Part shown: positions 23,651-34,042 of the stretch, piece after piece | Numbering within the stretch: position 1 is the stretch's first letter | Layout of the letters: each line of letters starts with the position of its first letter | Assembly (NCBI RefSeq): GCF_016026235.1 | Contig: NZ_CP065613.1 | From: Escherichia coli | GTDB taxonomy: Bacteria; Pseudomonadota; Gammaproteobacteria; Enterobacterales; Enterobacteriaceae | Length of the DNA: 64,000 bases | Strand: one strand, 5' to 3' | Position numbers and translations under genes: made by a program | The notes under the pieces: model-generated | What the model saw: the letters and a program-made list of their open reading frames with translations, nothing else | What the model was told of the DNA's origin: nothing | Database searches by the model: none

Positions 23651-24451
23651 ATGAACATTACCCCGTTTCCGACGCTTTCGCCGGCAACCATAGATGCCAT
23701 AAATGTTATCGGACAGTGGCTGGCGCAGGATGATTTCTCCGGTGAGGTGCCGTATCAGGCCGATTGCGTGATCCTTGCAGGCAATGCGGTTATGCCGACT
23801 ATCGATGCGGCATGTAAGATTGCCCGCGATCAGCAAATTCCTTTACTGATTAGTGGTGGTATCGGTCACTCGACCACTTTTTTGTATAGCGCCATCGCAC
23901 AGCATCCGCACTACAACACTATCCGCACCACTGGCAGAGCAGAAGCGACCATCCTGGCGGATATCGCTCATCAGTTCTGGCATATTCCGCATGAAAAAAT
24001 CTGGATTGAAGACCAGTCAACAAACTGCGGTGAAAACGCACGCTTTAGCATCGCGCTATTGAATCAGGCCGTAGAACGAGTTCATACGGCTATCGTTGTA
24101 CAGGACCCCACCATGCAGCGGCGCACGATGGCAACGTTCCGCCGTATGACCGGGGACAATCCCGATGTACCACGCTGGTTAAGTTATCCCGGATTCGTTC
24201 CTCAGTTAGGAAATAACGCAGACAGTGTAATCTTTATTAATCAGTTACAAGGATTATGGCCGGTTGAGCGTTATCTCTCACTACTCACTGGCGAGCTGCC
24301 GCGTTTACGCGATGATAGCGATGGCTACGGTCCCCGCGGGCGAGATTTTATCGTTCACGTTGATTTTCCGGCAGAAGTCATTCAGGCATGGCAAACGCTT
24401 AAACACGATGCGGTGCTCATCGAGGCGATGGAAAGTCGCTCGTTACGTTAA
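23651..24451 (+). CDS. ydcF: DUF218-family protein
   Basis: 266-aa ORF recognised as YdcF. Confidence 0.85.
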
Positions 24452-24455
24452 AAAT

Positions 24456-24490
24456 TGCCCGTTTGTGAACCACTTGTTTGCAAACGGGCA
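24456..24490 (+). terminator. Stem-loop after ydcF (TGCCCGTTTG ... CAAACGGGCA)
   Basis: 10-bp perfect inverted repeat with 15-nt loop right after the ydcF stop; weak T-tract. Confidence 0.4.
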
Positions 24491-24647
24491 TGACTCCTGA
24501 CTTTTATTTCTGCCTTTTATTCCTTTTACACTTGTTTTTATGAAGCCCTTCACAGAATTGTCCTTTCACGATGCCGTCTCTCTGATGATTGATGTTAATT
24601 AACAATGTATTTACCGAAAACAAACATATAAATCACAGGAGTCGCCC

Positions 24648-26087
24648 ATGTCAGTACCCGTTCAACATCCTATGTATATTGATGGACAGTTTGTTACCTG
24701 GCGTGGAGACGCATGGATTGATGTGGTAAACCCTGCTACAGAGGCTGTCATTTCCCGCATTCCCGATGGTCAGGCCGAGGATGCTCGTAAGGCAATCGAT
24801 GCAGCAGAACGTGCACAACCAGAATGGGAAGCGTTGCCTGCTATTGAACGCGCCAGTTGGTTGCGCAAAATCTCCGCCGGGATCCGCGAACGCGCCAGTG
24901 AAATCAGTGCGCTGATTGTTGAAGAAGGGGGCAAGATCCAGCAGCTGGCTGAAGTCGAAGTGGCTTTTACTGCCGACTATATCGATTACATGGCGGAGTG
25001 GGCACGGCGTTACGAGGGCGAGATTATTCAAAGCGATCGTCCAGGAGAAAATATTCTTCTGTTTAAACGTGCGCTTGGTGTGACTACCGGCATTCTGCCG
25101 TGGAACTTCCCGTTCTTCCTCATTGCCCGCAAAATGGCTCCCGCTCTTTTGACCGGTAATACCATCGTCATTAAACCCAGTGAATTTACGCCAAACAATG
25201 CGATTGCATTCGCCAAAATCGTCGATGAAATAGGCCTTCCGCGCGGCGTGTTTAACCTTGTTCTGGGGCGTGGTGAAACCGTTGGGCAAGAACTGGCGGG
25301 TAACCCAAAGGTCGCAATGGTCAGTATGACAGGCAGCGTCTCTGCAGGTGAGAAGATCATGGCGACTGCGGCGAAAAACATCACCAAAGTGTGCCTGGAA
25401 CTGGGGGGTAAAGCACCAGCTATCGTAATGGACGATGCCGATCTTGAACTGGCAGTCAAAGCCATCGTTGATTCACGCGTCATTAATAGTGGGCAAGTGT
25501 GTAACTGTGCAGAACGTGTTTATGTACAGAAAGGCATTTATGATCAGTTCGTCAATCGGCTGGGTGAAGCGATGCAGGCGGTTCAATTTGGTAACCCCGC
25601 TGAACGCAACGACATTGCGATGGGGCCGTTGATTAACGCCGCGGCGCTGGAAAGGGTCGAGCAAAAAGTGGCGCGCGCAGTAGAAGAAGGGGCGAGAGTG
25701 GCGTTGGGTGGCAAAGCGGTAGAGGGGAAAGGATATTATTATCCGCCGACATTGCTGCTGGATGTTCGCCAGGAAATGTCGATTATGCATGAGGAAACCT
25801 TTGGCCCGGTTCTGCCGGTAGTCGCATTTGACACGCTGGAAGATGCTATCTCAATGGCTAATGACAGTGATTACGGCCTGACCTCATCAATCTATACCCA
25901 AAATCTGAACGTCGCGATGAAAGCCATTAAAGGGCTGAAGTTTGGTGAAACTTACATCAACCGTGAAAACTTCGAAGCTATGCAAGGCTTCCACGCCGGA
26001 TGGCGTAAATCCGGTATTGGCGGCGCAGATGGTAAACATGGCCTGCATGAATATCTGCAGACCCAGGTGGTTTATTTACAGTCTTAA
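24648..26087 (+). CDS. aldA: Lactaldehyde / glycolaldehyde dehydrogenase (NAD+)
   Basis: 479-aa ORF recognised as aldehyde dehydrogenase AldA. Confidence 0.95.
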   Translation: MSVPVQHPMYIDGQFVTWRGDAWIDVVNPATEAVISRIPDGQAEDARKAIDAAERAQPEWEALPAIERASWLRKISAGIRERASEISALIVEEGGKIQQLAEVEVAFTADYIDYMAEWARRYEGEIIQSDRPGENILLFKRALGVTTGILPWNFPFFLIARKMAPALLTGNTIVIKPSEFTPNNAIAFAKIVDEIGLPRGVFNLVLGRGETVGQELAGNPKVAMVSMTGSVSAGEKIMATAAKNITKVCLELGGKAPAIVMDDADLELAVKAIVDSRVINSGQVCNCAERVYVQKGIYDQFVNRLGEAMQAVQFGNPAERNDIAMGPLINAAALERVEQKVARAVEEGARVALGGKAVEGKGYYYPPTLLLDVRQEMSIMHEETFGPVLPVVAFDTLEDAISMANDSDYGLTSSIYTQNLNVAMKAIKGLKFGETYINRENFEAMQGFHAGWRKSGIGGADGKHGLHEYLQTQVVYLQS

Positions 26088-26096
26088 TGAGTGAAA

Positions 26097-26121
26097 GAGG
26101 CGGAGGTTTTTTCCCTCCGCC
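26097..26121. terminator. Hairpin between convergent aldA and gapC (GGCGGAGG tttttt(c) CCTCCGCC)
   Basis: GC-rich 8-bp stem with a T-rich loop between the two stop codons. Confidence 0.4.
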
Positions 26122-26129
26122 TGTGCGCG

Positions 26130-27131
26130 TCAGAGTTTAGCGAATTTTTCGAGGGTGCGAATAAGCTGCGTGACGAAGCCATATTCGTTATCGTACCAGG
26201 CGACCGTTTTCACCAGTTGTAAATCGCCCACGGCGGTAATTTCCGTTTGCGTGGCATCAAACACTGAACCGAAATGGCTGCCAATGATATCGGAAGAGAC
26301 TATTTCTTCATCGGTATAACCAAATGACTCGTTATTGGTGGTTGCTTGTTTAAGTGCGTTATTCACCTCTTCGGCAGTCACTTTTTTTCCGAGAATCGAT
26401 ACCAGTTCAGTGACCGAACCTGTTTTCACCGGCACGCGTTGCGCATGACCTTTCAGTTTGCCGCTCAGTTCCGGGATCACCAGACCAATGGCTTTTGCCG
26501 CCCCCGTAGTGTGGGGAATGATATTTTCTGCCGCTGCGCGTGAAGCACGTAAATCTTTACCACGTGGGCCATCCACCAGTGACTGGGTGCCAGTATAGGC
26601 ATGAATGGTCGTCATCGTGCCGACTTCTATCCCGAAACTGTCATGCAAGGCTTTGGCCATCGGCGCAAGACAGTTAGTGGTGCATGACGCCACGGAAACA
26701 ATGGTGTCGTTGCCATCCAGAGTGTCGTCATTGACGTTATAAACGATAGTTTTCATTTCACCGGCAGGAGCGGAAATCAACACCTTCTTCGCACCAGCAT
26801 CAAGATGCGCCTGCGATTTATCGGCGGAGGTATAAAAGCCAGTACATTCGACAATGATTTCTGCCCCTTTCGCTTTCCACGGAATATTTTTAGCCTCTTT
26901 TTCGGCGTAAATCGCGATACTTTTCCCATCAACGATAAGTGAATCTTCCGTAAAATCAACGCTCCAGGGGAACGGTCCGTAGTTTGAATCATGTTTGAGC
27001 AGGTAGGCGAGAATTTTTGGAGAAGTGAGATCATTAATAGCGACAACGTCTATGTTGCTTTTGACTTCAAGTAATCGACGCAACACCAGTCGACCGATAC
27101 GACCAAAACCGTTAATACCAACTTTACTCAT
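26130..27131 (-). CDS. gapC: Glyceraldehyde-3-phosphate dehydrogenase paralog, apparently intact
   Basis: Uninterrupted 333-aa ORF ([20 protein letters not shown]...), NAD-binding motif and catalytic ...SCTTNCLAP... present. Confidence 0.9.
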
Positions 27132-27319
27132 GGTTTTCTCCTGTCAGGAACGTTCGGATGAAAATTGATCCTTTCCAGGCTTAGACCAGGATTGTGGGAT
27201 GGGCAATCTCCATTCTTACAGTGAAACGTAACGTACTGAAAACGGGTGAACAATATTTAATGAAATTTTGAGAAAAGCCCGTTATGTTAACGGAAAATTA
27301 TGTTGAAGCAGGAAATGTT

Positions 27320-27850
27320 ATGGAAAATAAATACTCAAGGTTACAAATCGGCATTCACTGGCTGGTCTTTTTGCTGGTTATCGCAGCGTATTGCGCAATG
27401 GAGTTTCGTGGTTTCTTCCCACGTAGCGAACGGCCGCTCATCAACATGATTCATGTTTCCTGTGGCATCTCAATTCTCGTGCTGATGGTGGTTCGTCTTT
27501 TGTTAAGACTGAAATACCCAACCCCGCCGATTATACCTAAGCCGAAACCGATGATGACGGGACTGGCGCATTTGGGACATTTGGTGATTTATCTCCTGTT
27601 TATTGCGCTGCCAGTGATTGGTTTGGTGATGATGTATAACCGGGGCAACCCGTGGTTTGCGTTTGGTTTGACGATGCCTTACGCTTCAGAGGCCAATTTC
27701 GAACGGGTAGATAGCTTAAAGTCGTGGCATGAAACGCTGGCGAATCTGGGATATTTTGTCATCGGTTTGCACGCTGCGGCTGCACTGGCACACCACTATT
27801 TCTGGAAGGACAACACACTTCTACGCATGATGCCGCGTAAACGTTCCTGA
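27320..27850 (+). CDS. cybB: Cytochrome b561
   Basis: ORF 27284..27850; ATG at 27320 (MENKYSRLQIGIHWLVFLLV...), 176 aa. Confidence 0.9.
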   Translation: MENKYSRLQIGIHWLVFLLVIAAYCAMEFRGFFPRSERPLINMIHVSCGISILVLMVVRLLLRLKYPTPPIIPKPKPMMTGLAHLGHLVIYLLFIALPVIGLVMMYNRGNPWFAFGLTMPYASEANFERVDSLKSWHETLANLGYFVIGLHAAAALAHHYFWKDNTLLRMMPRKRS

Positions 27851-27860
27851 AGAATATTTA

Positions 27861-27924
27861 AAGAAAACGCCTGTACTAAAACCGACCCGTGGTACAGGCG
27901 AAGAATACGGGTCTACATCGGAAG
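27861..27924 (-). ncRNA. rydC: Hfq-dependent small RNA RydC
   Basis: Reverse complement reads CTTCCGATGTAGACCCGTATTCTTCGCCTGTACCACGGGTCGGTTTTAGTACAGGCGTTTTCTT, which I recognise as RydC; K-12 position between cybB and ydcA is conserved. Confidence 0.75.
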
Positions 27925-28094
27925 CGCCTATTATATTTATTTGTATGACAAATAAAACCATAATCCTTGCCCATACGTCCATCTGGCTTATTTTTAATCA
28001 ATTCACCCGATCTTTGATCTCATCAACGGTATCAAAATAAACCAGCGTATAACGTTCAAATCGAACATAAGATTCGATAAACCATGGAGGTTAT

Positions 28095-28268
28095 ATGAAA
28101 AAACTGGCACTTATTTTGTTTATGGGAACGCTTGTTTCCTTTTATGCCGATGCCGGGCGCAAACCCTGTTCTGGTTCGAAAGGGGGGATCTCACACTGTA
28201 CGGCAGGCGGCAAATTTGTCTGTAATGATGGTTCTATTAGTGCATCGAAAAAAACATGCACTAACTGA
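28095..28268 (+). CDS. ydcA: Small secreted protein (57 aa, signal peptide)
   Basis: ATG at 28095 with an upstream GGAGG; MKKLALILFMGTLVSFYADA... to TGA at 28266-28268. Below the ORF-track length cutoff, read by hand. Confidence 0.75.
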   Translation: MKKLALILFMGTLVSFYADAGRKPCSGSKGGISHCTAGGKFVCNDGSISASKKTCTN

Positions 28269-28328
28269 AGTGTAAAAGGGGTGCCATGAGAAAATGAATC
28301 TGCTAGTCAGATGCGCGGGGAAAATCCC

Positions 28329-29622
28329 CTGAGGGATCCCCAGAAAATTTAGTAAACCATTATCATATTGGTATACCGTTGCTGTAGAACTTTCAGCCCT
28401 GCGTCAAGTGACAGTGTGTTTAGTATGAGTGGAGAATGTCGAATCACATTCTCCGCCAGTTTTAATAACGAGATGACTCGCCTGTGCTTCACTGTATTTG
28501 CCTGATATTTATGATGTATCCCTTTGTTTTCCAGGCTGAAACCGCTTAACCACATAATGATACTGGCTAATGTTGCGATCAGACTCAATACCGTGACCCG
28601 CCCGGATGAATGACTGGCACCAAACCGTAGTCCAAATCCCCAGCGAGGATTTTTTTCATCCCTGAAATTTTGCTCAATTTGCATTCTACGGCTGTATAAT
28701 TTCATTACCTGTTTTGGCGAGAACTCAGTACTGTTTGTGAAAATAAACCATGGTGATTTCCCGGCAGTACGAGCTTTAGCCGTCACCGATGGTCTGGTTG
28801 CTCTTTCCTTCGAGCGTTTAAATCTACGACCTTTAGGCTTACTTTTATAAAGATAAAAATGCCCTTCATGTTGTGCATTTTTATCTCGACCCAGCAGGCC
28901 TTCACCTAAATAAATTGCTGTCGTTGATGCTTTTGTGCCTGAGTCCGACACCTTTTCCCAGCCATTACCAACATTGTAATAATGATTGCCCAGTACCCGG
29001 CAAATATAGGTCCAGCCACGGGAGCGGAGCTGTTGGAACCATCGCCCCTGAAAACCGGCATCTGTAATAACAATGACATCAGTCCCGGGGGAAAAGCACT
29101 CAGCAAGCGATTCCAGAAAACGCTCATGTACATCTGCATTCGCTGTCTGTGATGATGGAACGACACAACTCATCAACGGTAAAGAACGCCCGTCACATGC
29201 CAGGCTTGCCCGCAAAAGCTGAAAACGAGAGGCATGATAAGCACTCCAGTCAATGAGTATCACAACACGAGACATTCCCCGCGTAATCTTTTGGGTAATT
29301 CGCTGAAAAATGGTGGAAACCTCATTTTGCAAATGTCGATTCCCCAACAGTCGATCCACCCGCTTTATTTTGTTTTTAACTGATGCCGTACCGGTTAAAT
29401 GACGCCCGATACTGGTAAGTGTGAGGGAAGCGCCATTTATTACAGCATTAGTTGCGTCAATCAGTGATTTTTGACGGTAAAGATGCAAAGGGGCCAGTAT
29501 GTTGTTAAGGAAATTTTGGCATAATGAACGTGCAGGCATAGTGGTGATCTCCTTGAAATTGTTAGCACAATCAATTAGATCACATCTCACTATGCCTGTC
29601 TTGTTTTCTGGGGATTCCTCAG
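28329..29622 (-). mobile_element. IS4-family (IS10-like) insertion sequence, about 1.29 kb, with 19-bp imperfect terminal inverted repeats
   Basis: Left end CTGAGGGATCCCCAGAAAA (28329-28347) and right end TTTTCTGGGGATTCCTCAG (29604-29622) match 18/19 as inverted repeats and resemble the IS10 terminus (CTGA..ATCCCC). Encodes a single transposase. Confidence 0.8.
28349..29539 (-). CDS. IS10-like DDE transposase (396 aa)
   Basis: Aligns by eye with the IS10 transposase as I recall it (KRVDRLLGNRHL, ILIDWS, DAGF, C-terminal YSRRMQIEQNFRDEK). Start taken as ATG at 29539 (MPARSLCQNF...); the track ORF extends 37 codons past the IS end. Confidence 0.85.
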   Translation of the reverse strand: MPARSLCQNFLNNILAPLHLYRQKSLIDATNAVINGASLTLTSIGRHLTGTASVKNKIKRVDRLLGNRHLQNEVSTIFQRITQKITRGMSRVVILIDWSAYHASRFQLLRASLACDGRSLPLMSCVVPSSQTANADVHERFLESLAECFSPGTDVIVITDAGFQGRWFQQLRSRGWTYICRVLGNHYYNVGNGWEKVSDSGTKASTTAIYLGEGLLGRDKNAQHEGHFYLYKSKPKGRRFKRSKERATRPSVTAKARTAGKSPWFIFTNSTEFSPKQVMKLYSRRMQIEQNFRDEKNPRWGFGLRFGASHSSGRVTVLSLIATLASIIMWLSGFSLENKGIHHKYQANTVKHRRVISLLKLAENVIRHSPLILNTLSLDAGLKVLQQRYTNMIMVY

Positions 29623-30917
29623 GGGAAGGCCACGCCTGCAACAGCGTCATGTTGACCGAGCAGGGTTAACGACAATTCGGTTTCCGTACCGGCGGCAATG
29701 GATTCCAGATTCCATTTGCCTTTTTCTCCCCAGCGGAAACCAATCGAACCGTTCGGCACTACCAATTCACCTGCGGTATTAACTGCTACGGTTTTCCACT
29801 GCGGATTGTTGCTTTCGCCCAGTCCATCCACCAGGTCAGATGCGCGGATCATGCGCCCAGGAACGTAGCTACCATCGTCGCGAGGCTCCAGCATTACCAG
29901 CATCGGCATGTCGCTGTAGCGGCGGCAGTAGTTGATAAAGTAGTCGCTGGGATTATCGAGATGAAACTCTTTTAAAATCACATGGCCCATTGCCATCGCC
30001 AGGGCGCTATCAGTGCCTTGTTTCGGTGCCAGCCACTGGTCGCACAATTTGGCCACTTCAGAGTAGTCAGGGGTAATGGCGATGGTTTTAGTGCCTTTGT
30101 AGCGTACTTCGGTAAAGAAGTGGGCGTCCGGCGTACGTGTCTGCGGTACGTTAGACCCCCAGGCGATGATGTAGCTGGAGTTATACCAGTCGGCAGATTC
30201 CGGTACGTCGGTTTGCTCGCCCTAGGTCATCGGCGAGGCGGGCGGCAGGTCGCAATACCAGTCGTAGAAACTTAAACAGGTGCCGCCAAGCAGCGACAGA
30301 TAACGCGTTCCGGCGGCGTAAGAAACCATCGACATCGCCGGGATCGGCGAGAAACCGGCAACGCGATCCGGGCCGTAGGTTTTGATGGTCCAGACGTTAG
30401 CGGCGGCAATCAGCTGGTTTAGTTCCTGCCAGTTGGAGCGGATAAACCCGCCGCGCCCACGCACTTGTTTGTAGCTCAGGCACTTTTGCGGATCGTTCAT
30501 AATCGATGCCCACGCCAGTACCGGATCGCTGTGTTGCTTGAGGGCTTCGCGCCACAGTTCAATCAGTCGTTTACGAATGAGCGGGTATTTCAGGCGGTTA
30601 GCGCTGTAAAGATACCAGGAGTAACTTGCGCCACGCGGGCAGCCGCGAGGTTCATGATTGGGCAGGTCAGGGCGAGTGCGCGGGTAGTCGGTCTGTTGGA
30701 TTTCCCAGGTCACCAGACCATTTTTAACGTAGATTTTCCAGCTACAGGAGCCTGTACAGTTAACACCGTGGGTGGAACGCACGATTTTGTCGAACTGCCA
30801 ACGCTGGCGATAGCTGTCCTCCCAGTCGCGGTTGCTATGCATCACCTGTCCGTGACCATCGGCAAAGGTTTCGCCCTTTTGTTTGAAGTAGCGAAAGCGA
30901 TCCAAAAGTTTACTCAT
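29623..30917 (-). pseudogene. narZ: Respiratory nitrate reductase Z alpha subunit, 5' remnant (truncated by IS, plus in-frame TAG)
   Basis: Starts [24 protein letters not shown] at 30917; in-frame TAG at 30222-30224 (plus strand CTA); frame continues to the IS right end at 29622. Only about 430 of roughly 1,250 codons remain; no narY/narW/narV follows. Confidence 0.85.
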
Positions 30918-32710: not shown

Positions 32711-34042
32711 CTAAAAAGGCCATGAACTGGAGGAAAACGATCTGTCCAGAAGGTCTATCGGTTCCTCTCTTATTGCCTGATTGTAATAATCGTTATTACA
32801 GTAAGTATTGTTTATTTCATCTAAGGTCATGTTTTTAACTTTTATATTCCTCTGGTTTACAACTTCCTCTGTCTTGTAAGTGTGTATATTATATGGGGTA
32901 TATGCTTTTTTAATAGGATAGTGAAACAATTCGTTATCCACATCTATTCCGTCAGAGTGAACTTCAAATGCACCAGGCGAAAGAATTGCCAGGCCAGTAT
33001 TAAGCTTAAGTGCTGGGGAAAACAAATTAAATAACATGAGCTGCATAGTAGGGCAATTGTTCTTCCCAGAAACATTTAAAAAATTTAAGTTTTTGCTCTG
33101 TTTTATTATGGGGAATAAAGTTCCAATATCGGATGTATTATTAGTATCAATGTGGGTTATTTTATTATTGTCCAGTCTTAAACTTTTGATAGATGGAAGA
33201 TAAGTCAGGAAATCAAGATTTATATATTTCAACTGGTTGTTAGCAGCGTTTAATGTCTGAACATTGCAGAAGTTGCTATAGAATATTTTAATTTCAGAAA
33301 GCAAATTGTTGTTAATAAGTAACGTATTCAAGTTGGGAAATAAGTCGTTGTGTAAACTTGTTAGTTTATTATGGGATAGATCCAGCAGTAAGAGTTCATT
33401 TTTATTACCTGCAACAATATCAGTTAATTGATTATGGCTGAGATTCAGGTATTGCAGCCATTCGCAAGATTCTAATTGCACAAACTCTAGTTGATTATGT
33501 GCCGCACTAAAATAAGTAACTGATGAAAGCCTATCTATATCAATATTTCTGAGAGCATTATTATTCATAGATATATGTGTAATACTTACATTTCTGCCTT
33601 GAGGAAAATTTATTGACTCAAGAGCATTACTATTCAGACTTAGCTTTACGAGTCTATCGTAGTTGGTTGCATCAAAATGTGTGAGTTGGTTATTATCAAG
33701 ATTGATAGATGTGAAGTTTTGCAGCCCTGGTGGTTGAGTGGTTAAATTAAGTCCTGATAAATCAATGGTCACTTCATTAGTGTCATCAATTATATTTCTT
33801 ACTGCAGTCCAGTACTGCATTTGTGCAAGTGGATCATTGTTGATGCCGTTAACTAATACATGCCAAAGATGTTTTGATGATATTAGTTGATCAATGTCAT
33901 TGGTTGGCAGTAAATTGTTATTGCTTAAGTTTAAATATTCCAGTTTTGTAGTGTTTTTGGCGTTTAAATGTGCAATATGGTTGTCGTTTAAAGTGATTGT
34001 TTTCATCCTGGGATGATTGTGTAATATAAGGTCAGTGATCAT
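32711..34042 (-). CDS. yddK: Leucine-rich-repeat protein (about 11 LRRs), no signal peptide, AT-rich gene
   Basis: 443-aa ORF with repeated LxxLxLxxNxLxxI units (LNLSHNQLTDI, LDLSHNKLTSL, LRLDNNKITHI...). Visibly AT-rich. Assigned to the yddK/yddJ locus by position; my memory is that K-12 has this as two shorter ORFs. Confidence 0.8.
   Translation of the reverse strand: MITDLILHNHPRMKTITLNDNHIAHLNAKNTTKLEYLNLSNNNLLPTNDIDQLISSKHLWHVLVNGINNDPLAQMQYWTAVRNIIDDTNEVTIDLSGLNLTTQPPGLQNFTSINLDNNQLTHFDATNYDRLVKLSLNSNALESINFPQGRNVSITHISMNNNALRNIDIDRLSSVTYFSAAHNQLEFVQLESCEWLQYLNLSHNQLTDIVAGNKNELLLLDLSHNKLTSLHNDLFPNLNTLLINNNLLSEIKIFYSNFCNVQTLNAANNQLKYINLDFLTYLPSIKSLRLDNNKITHIDTNNTSDIGTLFPIIKQSKNLNFLNVSGKNNCPTMQLMLFNLFSPALKLNTGLAILSPGAFEVHSDGIDVDNELFHYPIKKAYTPYNIHTYKTEEVVNQRNIKVKNMTLDEINNTYCNNDYYNQAIREEPIDLLDRSFSSSSWPF

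What the first reader, a model, noticed from the sequence alone, without database searches (positions are those of the whole stretch)
27861..27924. RydC small RNA conserved between cybB and ydcA, just before the deletion scar
The minus strand reproduces the RydC sRNA sequence with its pseudoknot-forming 5' region and terminator. It lies about 400 bp from the IS left end, so the deletion removed the neighbouring hokB/sokB toxin-antitoxin module but spared this regulator.
Basis: partly seen in the sequence, partly recalled or inferred. Interest (0 to 1): 0.3.

Follow-up and report, generated by a model that had tools for sequence, protein, structure and literature searches.

The report
RydC small RNA beside IS deletion
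This is the ordinary, well-studied RydC regulatory RNA gene of E. coli, intact and in its usual place; an insertion sequence 400 bases away marks a roughly 49 kb deletion that removed the neighbouring hokB/sokB toxin module but left RydC alone.

Summary
Confirmed and ordinary. Rfam's RydC model (RF00505) matches window 27924..27861 on the minus strand over its full length at 92.5 bits (cut-off 48, E 5e-17). The 64 nt are identical to rydC (b4597) of E. coli K-12. The gene sits between cybB and ydcA as in K-12, and this locus is found in 5415 of 5426 complete E. coli genomes.

The known anatomy is all present:
- a single-stranded 5' seed
- two interleaved helices forming the pseudoknot
- a U tail
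- a perfect TATAAT -10 box

The context claim also holds. Colinearity with K-12 stops at 28329 and resumes at 29621 inside narZ, with a 1.3 kb IS4-family element (ISEc60) in between. About 49.4 kb of K-12-equivalent DNA (hokB/mokB/sokB through narV/W/Y and most of narZ) is missing from this locus. The closest relative has the same IS insertion with matching target duplications and keeps hokB and narZ. In the window the two flanks do not match, which is the signature of an IS-associated deletion.

One detail is imprecise: the 5' end is the free seed, not part of the pseudoknot. Nothing here is new, so interest is low.

The parts
27861..27924 (-). rydC gene (64-nt RydC sRNA; nt 1 = 27924, nt 64 = 27861)
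   Evidence: Rfam RF00505, 92.5 bits, E 5e-17, full length; 64/64 identical to MG1655 b4597
27914..27924 (-). 5' single-stranded seed (nt 1-11, CUUCCGAUGUA)
   Evidence: Unpaired in the Rfam consensus structure. Invariant in 8 Escherichia sequences. nt 2-12 pair with the K-12 cfa 5' UTR at about -110 to -99. Described as the seed in PMC4337610.
27884..27913 (-). Pseudoknot helix 1: nt 12-18 (27907-27913) pair with nt 35-41 (27884-27890), 7 standard pairs; A11/G42 is unpaired here
   Evidence: Direct pair check; Rfam consensus structure; 95% of cells paired across Escherichia
27868..27900 (-). Pseudoknot helix 2, which is also the terminator stem: nt 25-33 (27892-27900) pair with nt 49-57 (27868-27876), 9 standard pairs, interleaved with helix 1
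   Evidence: Direct pair check; minimum-energy fold; 100% paired across Escherichia
27861..27867 (-). 3' U-rich tail UUUUCUU (terminator tail; binds the Hfq proximal face according to the literature)
   Evidence: Sequence; PMC4337610
27930..27935 (-). rydC -10 box TATAAT, at -11 to -6; no recognisable -35
   Evidence: Sequence. The sigma-70 consensus scan found no full promoter, consistent with PMC11340327 ('perfect -10, no obvious -35').
27925..28095 (-). 171 nt upstream of rydC, the stretch that sufficed for YieP-regulated reporter expression in K-12; fully retained, with one substitution relative to K-12 at 27949 (-25, A to G)
   Evidence: Alignment with K-12; reporter construct described in PMC11340327
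27320..27850 (+). cybB (cytochrome b561 / superoxide oxidase), convergent with rydC, 10 bp apart
   Evidence: NF008566, 378 bits, profile 1-176; K-12 annotation
28095..28268 (+). ydcA (57-aa periplasmic protein), divergent from rydC
   Evidence: NF007462, 147 bits; K-12 annotation
28317..28329 (.). Left copy of the IS target site, GGGGAAAATCCCC. This is the loop region of the hairpin GCGCGGGG-AAAAT-CCCCGCGC that lies between ydcA/yncP and hokB in K-12.
28330..29621 (-). IS4-family insertion sequence ('ISEc60'). The core is 1,292 bp from TGAGGGATCCCCAGAAAA to TTTTCTGGGGATTCCTCA. Its ends are ambiguous by up to 4 bp because the target consensus is GGGG...CCCC. The transposase gene is 28349-29539 (-).
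   Evidence: NF033591 IS4 transposase, 360 bits; 100% identical copies in FDAARGOS_943; RefSeq name ISEc60; ends and duplications from 5 other copies
29622..29633 (.). Right flank GGGGAAGGCCAC, which is native narZ sequence. It fits the IS target consensus but does not match the left flank, so this is the deletion junction.
29622..30917 (-). narZ remnant: the first 432 of 1,246 codons, with a W232 TGG to TAG stop at 30222-30224

Best explanation
Window 27861-27924 (minus strand) is the intact rydC gene of an E. coli/Shigella-lineage chromosome.

Sequence features shown here: it has its own sigma-70 promoter with a perfect TATAAT and no -35. It ends at an intrinsic terminator. The 64-nt RNA can fold into an H-type pseudoknot in which helix 1 (nt 12-18 with 35-41) interleaves with helix 2 (nt 25-33 with 49-57). 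That leaves nt 1-11 as a free seed and UUUUCUU as the 3' tail.

Function, taken from published work on the identical K-12 RNA and the Salmonella homologue: Hfq binds the U tail and the U-rich loops. The seed pairs with the long 5' UTR of cfa mRNA about 100 nt upstream of the start codon. This protects the mRNA from RNase E and from Rho and raises cyclopropane fatty acid synthase. RydC also represses yejABEF, csgD and other mRNAs. Transcription is repressed by the GntR-family protein YieP.

The neighbouring feature is an ISEc60 (IS4-family) element. It first inserted into the terminator-like hairpin between ydcA/yncP and hokB. It then became the left boundary of a deletion of about 45-49 kb that reaches into narZ. 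The most likely route is recombination with a second, same-orientation copy inserted at a consensus target site in narZ. An IS-end-mediated adjacent deletion is the alternative. The deletion removed hokB/mokB/sokB and some 50 other genes. It stopped 402 bp from rydC, outside everything known to be needed for its regulated expression.

In summary, the sequence identity, anatomy, synteny, IS boundaries and missing segment are shown here. Expression, Hfq binding and target regulation in this particular strain are inferred.
For: - Rfam RF00505, 92.5 bits against a cut-off of 48, full length.
- 64/64 identity to K-12 rydC and 259/261 identity over the surrounding 261 bp.
- cybB-rydC-ydcA synteny.
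- The locus is present in 5415 of 5426 complete E. coli genomes at 95% identity or more.
- Both helices pair fully: 7 and 9 standard pairs.
- 97.6% of cells are paired across five distinct Escherichia sequences, against 23-41% when the partners are slid.
- An A13-U40 to G13-U40 change in E. albertii, E. whittamii and one other Escherichia keeps the pair.
- The seed is complementary to the K-12 cfa 5' UTR at about -110 to -99.
- Literature: pseudoknot, seed and Hfq crystal structure in PMC4337610; promoter, YieP repression and the sufficient 171-nt upstream fragment in PMC11340327.
- Deletion: K-12 colinearity breaks at 28329 and 29621, and 49,382 bp with 54 K-12 features is missing.
- The same IS insertion in FDAARGOS_943 has a matching GGGGAAAATCCCC duplication and intact hokB, trg and narZ.
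- Five other copies show the target GGGG-N4/5-CC(C/A)C with 10-13 bp duplications, and the narZ junction GGGGAAGGCCAC fits that consensus.
- No sok or hok remains in the window.
Against: - Nothing contradicts the identification.
- The nested-only energy fold is no more stable than shuffled sequence (z = -0.48). That method cannot represent a pseudoknot.
- My own set of Escherichia homologues is too conserved to give any compensatory change (0 pairs changed on both sides). Independent support for the structure therefore comes from the Rfam model and the published crystal structure, not from covariation found here.
- The consensus promoter scan finds no sigma-70 promoter for rydC. This agrees with the published absence of a -35 box.
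- Hfq, YieP and cfa are outside the window, so the integrity of the circuit in this strain is unknown.
- The mechanism of the deletion cannot be decided from a single product.
Confidence: 0.96

Rival explanations
1. The RydC gene is intact in sequence but no longer functional in this lineage, for example because a partner (hfq, yieP, cfa target site) has decayed, as often happens in IS-rich Shigella/EIEC-like genomes. It would then be a conserved relic rather than a working regulator.
For: The window shows active gene loss nearby: a 49 kb deletion, a second 7.4 kb deletion and a nonsense codon in the narZ remnant. The closest relative carries about 38 ISEc60 copies plus IS1 and IS600.
Against: The RNA is 64/64 identical to K-12 and the -10 box is intact. 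There is only one substitution in the 171-nt upstream region. The gene is near-universal in E. coli. No partner gene could be examined, so there is no positive evidence of decay.
Confidence: 0.05
2. The junction is not a net deletion. The hokB-to-narZ segment was moved elsewhere in the genome by recombination between ISEc60 copies, so hokB/sokB may still be present outside the window.
For: Only 64 kb is visible. Relatives carry many ISEc60 copies that could serve as recombination partners.
Against: The sequence to the right of the IS continues in the K-12 order and orientation (narZ 5' part, narU, yddK-like, yddG, fdnGHI), which is what a simple deletion gives. A translocation needs extra events. 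An inversion is excluded by the orientation.
Confidence: 0.08
3. The deletion arose by an IS-end-mediated adjacent deletion (intramolecular or one-ended transposition of the resident ISEc60 into narZ), or by microhomology-mediated illegitimate recombination at the shared AGGGGAA. It did not arise by homologous recombination between two IS copies.
For: The junction lies exactly at the IS right end. The 7 bases AGGGGAA are shared by the ancestral IS-end/right-flank sequence and by native narZ. The closest relative has no IS copy in narZ.
Against: IS4-family elements transpose by cut-and-paste, which does not normally leave the donor copy in place (general knowledge of IS10/IS50, not tested here). 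The shared bases are explained by the element's target preference, since GGGG begins every right flank examined. All routes give the same product, so the sequence cannot discriminate between them.
Confidence: 0.35
4. The Rfam match is a chance or non-genic resemblance.
For: None.
Against: E = 5e-17; full-length match; identity to an experimentally characterised gene; conserved synteny.
Confidence: 0.01

Closest known systems
RydC sRNA of E. coli K-12 (b4597; Rfam RF00505)
   Same: Identical 64-nt sequence, the same strand relative to its neighbours, the same cybB and ydcA flanks, and the same TATAAT -10 box.
   Different: One substitution at -25 in the promoter spacer and one 8 nt past the 3' end. 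In K-12 the hokB/mokB/sokB module lies about 420 bp upstream of rydC, beyond ydcA. Here that position is occupied by an IS followed by narZ sequence.
RydC of Salmonella enterica (crystallised with Hfq, PMC4337610)
   Same: The same family, pseudoknot fold, 5' seed and cfa target, according to the literature.
   Different: A different 5' neighbour (STM1638 rather than ydcA). The sequence differs enough that my 19-base conserved pattern did not retrieve it.
ISEc60, an IS4-family insertion sequence, as found in FDAARGOS_943 and in EIEC strains such as CFSAN029787
   Same: 100% identical over 1,292 bp to the copies in FDAARGOS_943. It has the same terminal inverted repeats and the same insertion point between ydcA and hokB.
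   Different: In the window the element is not flanked by a target duplication, and its right side abuts narZ. In FDAARGOS_943 the copy at this site is itself interrupted by IS600 and IS1.
hokB/mokB/sokB type I toxin-antitoxin locus
   Same: It is the normal neighbour of ydcA and rydC in K-12, in the closest relative and in other Escherichia species.
   Different: It is absent from the window.

Membership tests
RydC sRNA (Rfam RF00505) | Covariance-model score at or above the curated gathering score (48 bits), over the full length | tested here: met
   92.5 bits, model 1-64/64, E 5.2e-17
RydC sRNA (Rfam RF00505) | Two interleaved helices forming an H-type pseudoknot | tested here: met
   nt 12-18 with 35-41 (7 pairs) and nt 25-33 with 49-57 (9 pairs), all standard pairs; 97.6% of cells paired across Escherichia against 23-41% in slid controls. 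No compensatory changes were available in my set.
RydC sRNA (Rfam RF00505) | Conserved unpaired 5' seed complementary to the cfa long 5' UTR | tested here: met
   nt 1-12 are invariant in 8 Escherichia sequences. There is an 11-bp duplex (one G-U) with the K-12 cfa UTR at about -110 to -99. The cfa gene of the source strain itself is not in the window.
RydC sRNA (Rfam RF00505) | Intrinsic terminator with a 3' U tail (Hfq proximal-face site) | tested here: met
   The 9-bp G+C-rich helix 2 is followed by UUUUCUU.
RydC sRNA (Rfam RF00505) | Own promoter: perfect TATAAT, no clear -35 | tested here: met
   TATAAT at 27930-27935 (-); no full sigma-70 consensus; matches the description in PMC11340327
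RydC sRNA (Rfam RF00505) | Genomic position next to cybB (and ydcA in E. coli/Shigella) | tested here: met
RydC sRNA (Rfam RF00505) | Expressed as a ~64-nt Hfq-bound RNA that regulates cfa, yejABEF and csgD | not testable with these tools
   Known for the identical K-12 RNA from the literature; needs a Northern blot or RNA-seq in this strain
IS4-family insertion sequence (ISEc60) | DDE transposase of the IS4 family | tested here: met
   NF033591, 360 bits against a cut-off of 152
IS4-family insertion sequence (ISEc60) | Terminal inverted repeats | tested here: met
   TGAGG(G/A)ATCCCCAGAAAA at both ends
IS4-family insertion sequence (ISEc60) | Direct target duplication of about 10-13 bp flanking a simple insertion | tested here: not met
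   In the window the flanks are GGGGAAAATCCCC and GGGGAAGGCCAC. Other copies, including the same site in FDAARGOS_943, have matching 10-13 bp duplications. The feature is met by the family but not by this copy, which is the evidence for a secondary deletion rather than against membership.

The most novel reading that the evidence does not exclude
All the sequence now upstream of rydC on its own strand (narU, the narZ remnant and the IS transposase gene) is transcribed towards rydC. The IS also split the hairpin that lay between hokB and ydcA. Read-through could therefore alter RydC levels, for example through nitrate- or stationary-phase-linked transcription entering the rydC promoter region. 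That would change cyclopropane fatty acid content in this IS-rich lineage.
Probability: 0.03. Interest if true: 0.3.

Novelty: already known. Interest (0 to 1): 0.07.

Why it matters
It matters little beyond correct annotation. RydC is a characterised, near-universal E. coli sRNA, and this copy is identical to the reference. The context is a neat example of IS-associated reductive evolution. A target-specific IS4-family element sits in a terminator-like hairpin and bounds a deletion of about 49 kb that took out three toxin modules (hokB/sokB, hicAB, ortT), trg, opgD, tehAB and the NarZ nitrate reductase. The deletion stopped short of the sRNA and its regulatory region. This could help lineage typing or the study of gene loss in Shigella/EIEC-like strains, but it raises no new question about RydC.

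Tried and rejected
- Genome-collection scan for homologues. I scanned one genome per species with the pattern CTTCCGATGT-N11-CTTCGCCTG, hoping for diverse homologues to test covariation. Only six Escherichia loci and two chance hits in unrelated MAGs came back, and the MAG hits have no Rfam RydC match.
- Covariation count on the Escherichia alignment. It was uninformative: no pair changed on both sides, and the shuffles equalled the observed values.
- Nested minimum-energy fold. It recovers only helix 2 and is no better than shuffles (z = -0.48). This is not evidence against the structure, because pseudoknots are outside that method.
- Sigma-70 consensus scan. It found no rydC promoter, which is explained by the published lack of a -35 box.
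- Second IS copy in narZ. I looked for one in the closest relative to settle the deletion mechanism. narZ is intact there, so the mechanism stays open.
- IS ends. I considered that the IS might be 1,300 bp with a 5-bp duplication, treating CCCC/GGGG as part of the element. I rejected this in favour of 10-13 bp duplications, because the mscL and yqeC copies have mismatches at the outermost flank bases. The ends remain ambiguous by a few bases.
- Identity of the source organism. I did not establish it beyond 'E. coli/Shigella lineage, closest to FDAARGOS_943'.

Full report
**Observation**

An Rfam (release 15) scan of the whole 64 kb window at curated thresholds returned two matches. One is RydC (RF00505) at 27924..27861 on the minus strand. 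It scored 92.5 bits against a gathering score of 48, with E = 5.2e-17, model positions 1-64 of 64, and no truncation.

The 64 nt are CUUCCGAUGUAGACCCGUAUUCUUCGCCUGUACCACGGGUCGGUUUUAGUACAGGCGUUUUCUU. They are identical to the annotated rydC ncRNA (b4597) of E. coli K-12 MG1655. The surrounding 261 bp differ from K-12 at two positions only. One is at -25 in the promoter spacer (window 27949). The other is 8 nt beyond the 3' end (27853).

**Context**

- Upstream on the plus strand is cybB (27320-27850; NF008566, 378 bits). It is convergent with rydC, with 10 bp between them.
- On the other side is ydcA (28095-28268; NF007462, 147 bits), divergent from rydC.
- This is the K-12 arrangement. It is also the arrangement described for E. 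coli and Shigella in PMC11340327.
- A 271-bp query spanning the locus matched 5415 of 5426 complete E. coli genomes, all at 95% identity or more. This is core-genome sequence.

**Anatomy**

I checked the published pseudoknot directly on the sequence.
- Helix 1 is nt 12-18 with nt 35-41: seven standard pairs. A11/G42 is unpaired in this sequence and is A-U in some other Escherichia.
- Helix 2 is nt 25-33 with nt 49-57: nine standard pairs.
- The strands occur in the order 1, 2, 1', 2', so this is an H-type pseudoknot.
- Nucleotides 1-11 are left unpaired. The RNA ends in UUUUCUU.

A nested-only energy fold finds helix 2 alone and is no more stable than shuffled sequence (z = -0.48). That is expected, because the method cannot represent pseudoknots.

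Six further Escherichia RydC genes came from a scan of one genome per species and were confirmed by Rfam at 88-91 bits. They differ at only four positions. One change, A13 to G13, keeps the pair with U40. The named structure has 97.6% of cells paired, against 23-41% when partners are slid by 1-3 columns. There is no compensatory change, so my data add no independent covariation support. The structure rests on the Rfam model and on the RydC-Hfq crystal structure and mutational work in PMC4337610.

The 5' end is the free seed, and the pseudoknot is what exposes it.

**Promoter**

TATAAT lies at -11 to -6 (27930-27935, minus strand), with no recognisable -35. The consensus scan accordingly reports no sigma-70 promoter there. 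This matches PMC11340327: 'a perfect -10 box ... no obvious -35 box'.

That paper also reports three relevant results:
- A fusion carrying 171 nt upstream of rydC is repressed about 20-fold by the GntR-family regulator YieP.
- Mutants in neighbouring-gene regulators, including ydcI, do not change rydC transcription.
- In the window those 171 nt (27925-28095) are intact. ydcI is among the genes deleted.

**How it works** (from the literature on the identical RNA; not tested in this strain)

Hfq binds the 3' U tail and the U-rich loops. The seed pairs with the long cfa 5' UTR. This stabilises the mRNA, counteracts Rho, and raises cyclopropane fatty acid synthase. RydC also represses csgD (PMC3985669) and other targets.

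As a consistency check, RydC nt 2-12 form an 11-bp duplex (one G-U) with the K-12 cfa 5' UTR at about -110 to -99 relative to the start codon. cfa, hfq and yieP are not in the window.

**The 'deletion scar'**

blastn against K-12 shows colinearity from window 24416 to 28329 (K-12 1,488,000-1,491,911). It resumes from 29621 (K-12 1,541,294) onwards in the same order and orientation.

Between these points lies a 1,292-bp core element:
- It has inverted ends TGAGG(G/A)ATCCCCAGAAAA.
- It carries a minus-strand transposase gene (NF033591 IS4 family, 360 bits).
- RefSeq names identical copies 'IS4-like element ISEc60'.

The missing K-12 interval is 49,382 bp with 54 annotated features. It includes:
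- the 3' part of yncP
- hokB, mokB, sokB
- trg, ydcI, opgD, rimL, tehAB
- hicAB, ortT
- mcbR, ansP
- narV, narW, narY and the last two thirds of narZ

No Rfam sok match exists in the window. blastn of the K-12 hokB/mokB/sokB region against the window finds nothing beyond a 13-nt chance match.

The closest relative is 'E. coli' FDAARGOS_943, which is 99.9-100% identical over the flanks. It has the same IS at the same base between ydcA and hokB, further interrupted there by IS600 and IS1. In that genome the IS is flanked on both sides by GGGGAAAATCCCC, and hokB, trg and narZ are intact. The insertion therefore predates the deletion.

Five other ISEc60 copies (in mscL, next to an ibs toxin gene, in yqeC, on a large plasmid of EIEC strain CFSAN029787, and an 85%-identical relative on another plasmid) all show 10-13 bp duplications of a GGGG-N4/5-CC(C/A)C target. 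In the window the left flank is GGGGAAAATCCCC but the right flank is GGGGAAGGCCAC. The latter is native narZ sequence and itself fits the target consensus.

Non-matching flanks are the classical mark of an IS-associated deletion. The likeliest route is a second, same-orientation copy inserted in narZ, followed by recombination between the two copies. A direct IS-end-mediated adjacent deletion cannot be excluded, and neither can recombination at the shared AGGGGAA. All three routes give the same product.

None of 5,426 complete E. coli genomes contains this junction: no record covers 80% or more of a 5-kb query spanning it. The event is therefore lineage-specific, or lies in Shigella assemblies that are not in that collection. 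The window cannot show whether the segment survives elsewhere in the genome.

**Comparison with what is known, and verdict**

Every defining feature of the RydC family that can be tested on sequence is met. Expression and Hfq binding cannot be tested here. The gene is a known member of a known family, identical to the reference, in its usual place. The IS and the deletion are ordinary reductive evolution of the kind seen in IS-rich E. coli/Shigella lineages. The only mildly notable detail is the marked target specificity of ISEc60 for GGGG...CCCC palindromes. Novelty: already known. Interest: low.

Noticed in passing
window 36310-36368 (+): Rfam SECIS_3 (RF01989), 84.3 bits against a cut-off of 63: the selenocysteine insertion element inside fdnG (formate dehydrogenase N alpha subunit).
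   Followed up: partly
window 47166: A second deletion with no IS at the junction. K-12 1,558,999-1,566,353 (7,355 bp) is absent: the ddpD 5' part, ddpC, ddpB, ddpA, ddpX, dosP and part of dosC. This fuses ddpD and dosC remnants. The segment is present in the closest relative, FDAARGOS_943.
   Followed up: partly
window 30222-30224 (-), within the narZ remnant 29622-30917: The only amino-acid difference from K-12 in the 432 retained narZ codons is W232 TGG to TAG. This is a nonsense mutation in a gene that is also truncated by the deletion.
   Followed up: yes
window 26130-27131 (-): gapC is an intact 333-codon ORF here (as in FDAARGOS_943), whereas it is a pseudogene in K-12.
   Followed up: no
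window 28294-28332 (+): The small protein gene yncP (22 codons in K-12) is cut to 12 codons by the IS, which supplies the stop codon.
   Followed up: yes
window 28317-28329 and 29622-29633; loci L002, L005-L009: ISEc60 shows strong target specificity for GGGG-N4/5-CC(C/A)C palindromes, with 10-13 bp duplications. At the ydcA/hokB site it sits in the loop of a perfect hairpin, GCGCGGGG-AAAAT-CCCCGCGC.
   Followed up: partly
window 40341-40552: About 180 bp more than K-12 between fdnI and yddM, made of REP/BIME-like palindromic units (GCCGGATGCGGCGTGAACGCCTTATCCGGCCTAC).
   Followed up: no
L015 1742-2389, L016 1135-1783, L013 1992-2143: In other Escherichia genomes (E. coli E69, E. whittamii, E. 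coli SCPM-O-B-8794), one or two tandem sok/hok modules (RF01794, 109-114 bits) lie 0.6-1.2 kb from RydC. The copy number of the toxin module at this locus therefore varies.
   Followed up: no
window 32711-34042 (-): A full-length 443-aa leucine-rich-repeat protein occupies the position where K-12 has yddK (318 aa) plus the yddJ pseudogene.
   Followed up: no
L012 3558-3587, L014 2613-2642: Two exact matches of the 19-base RydC pattern in Lachnospiraceae and Verrucomicrobiaceae MAGs have no Rfam RydC hit, so they are chance matches.
   Followed up: yes
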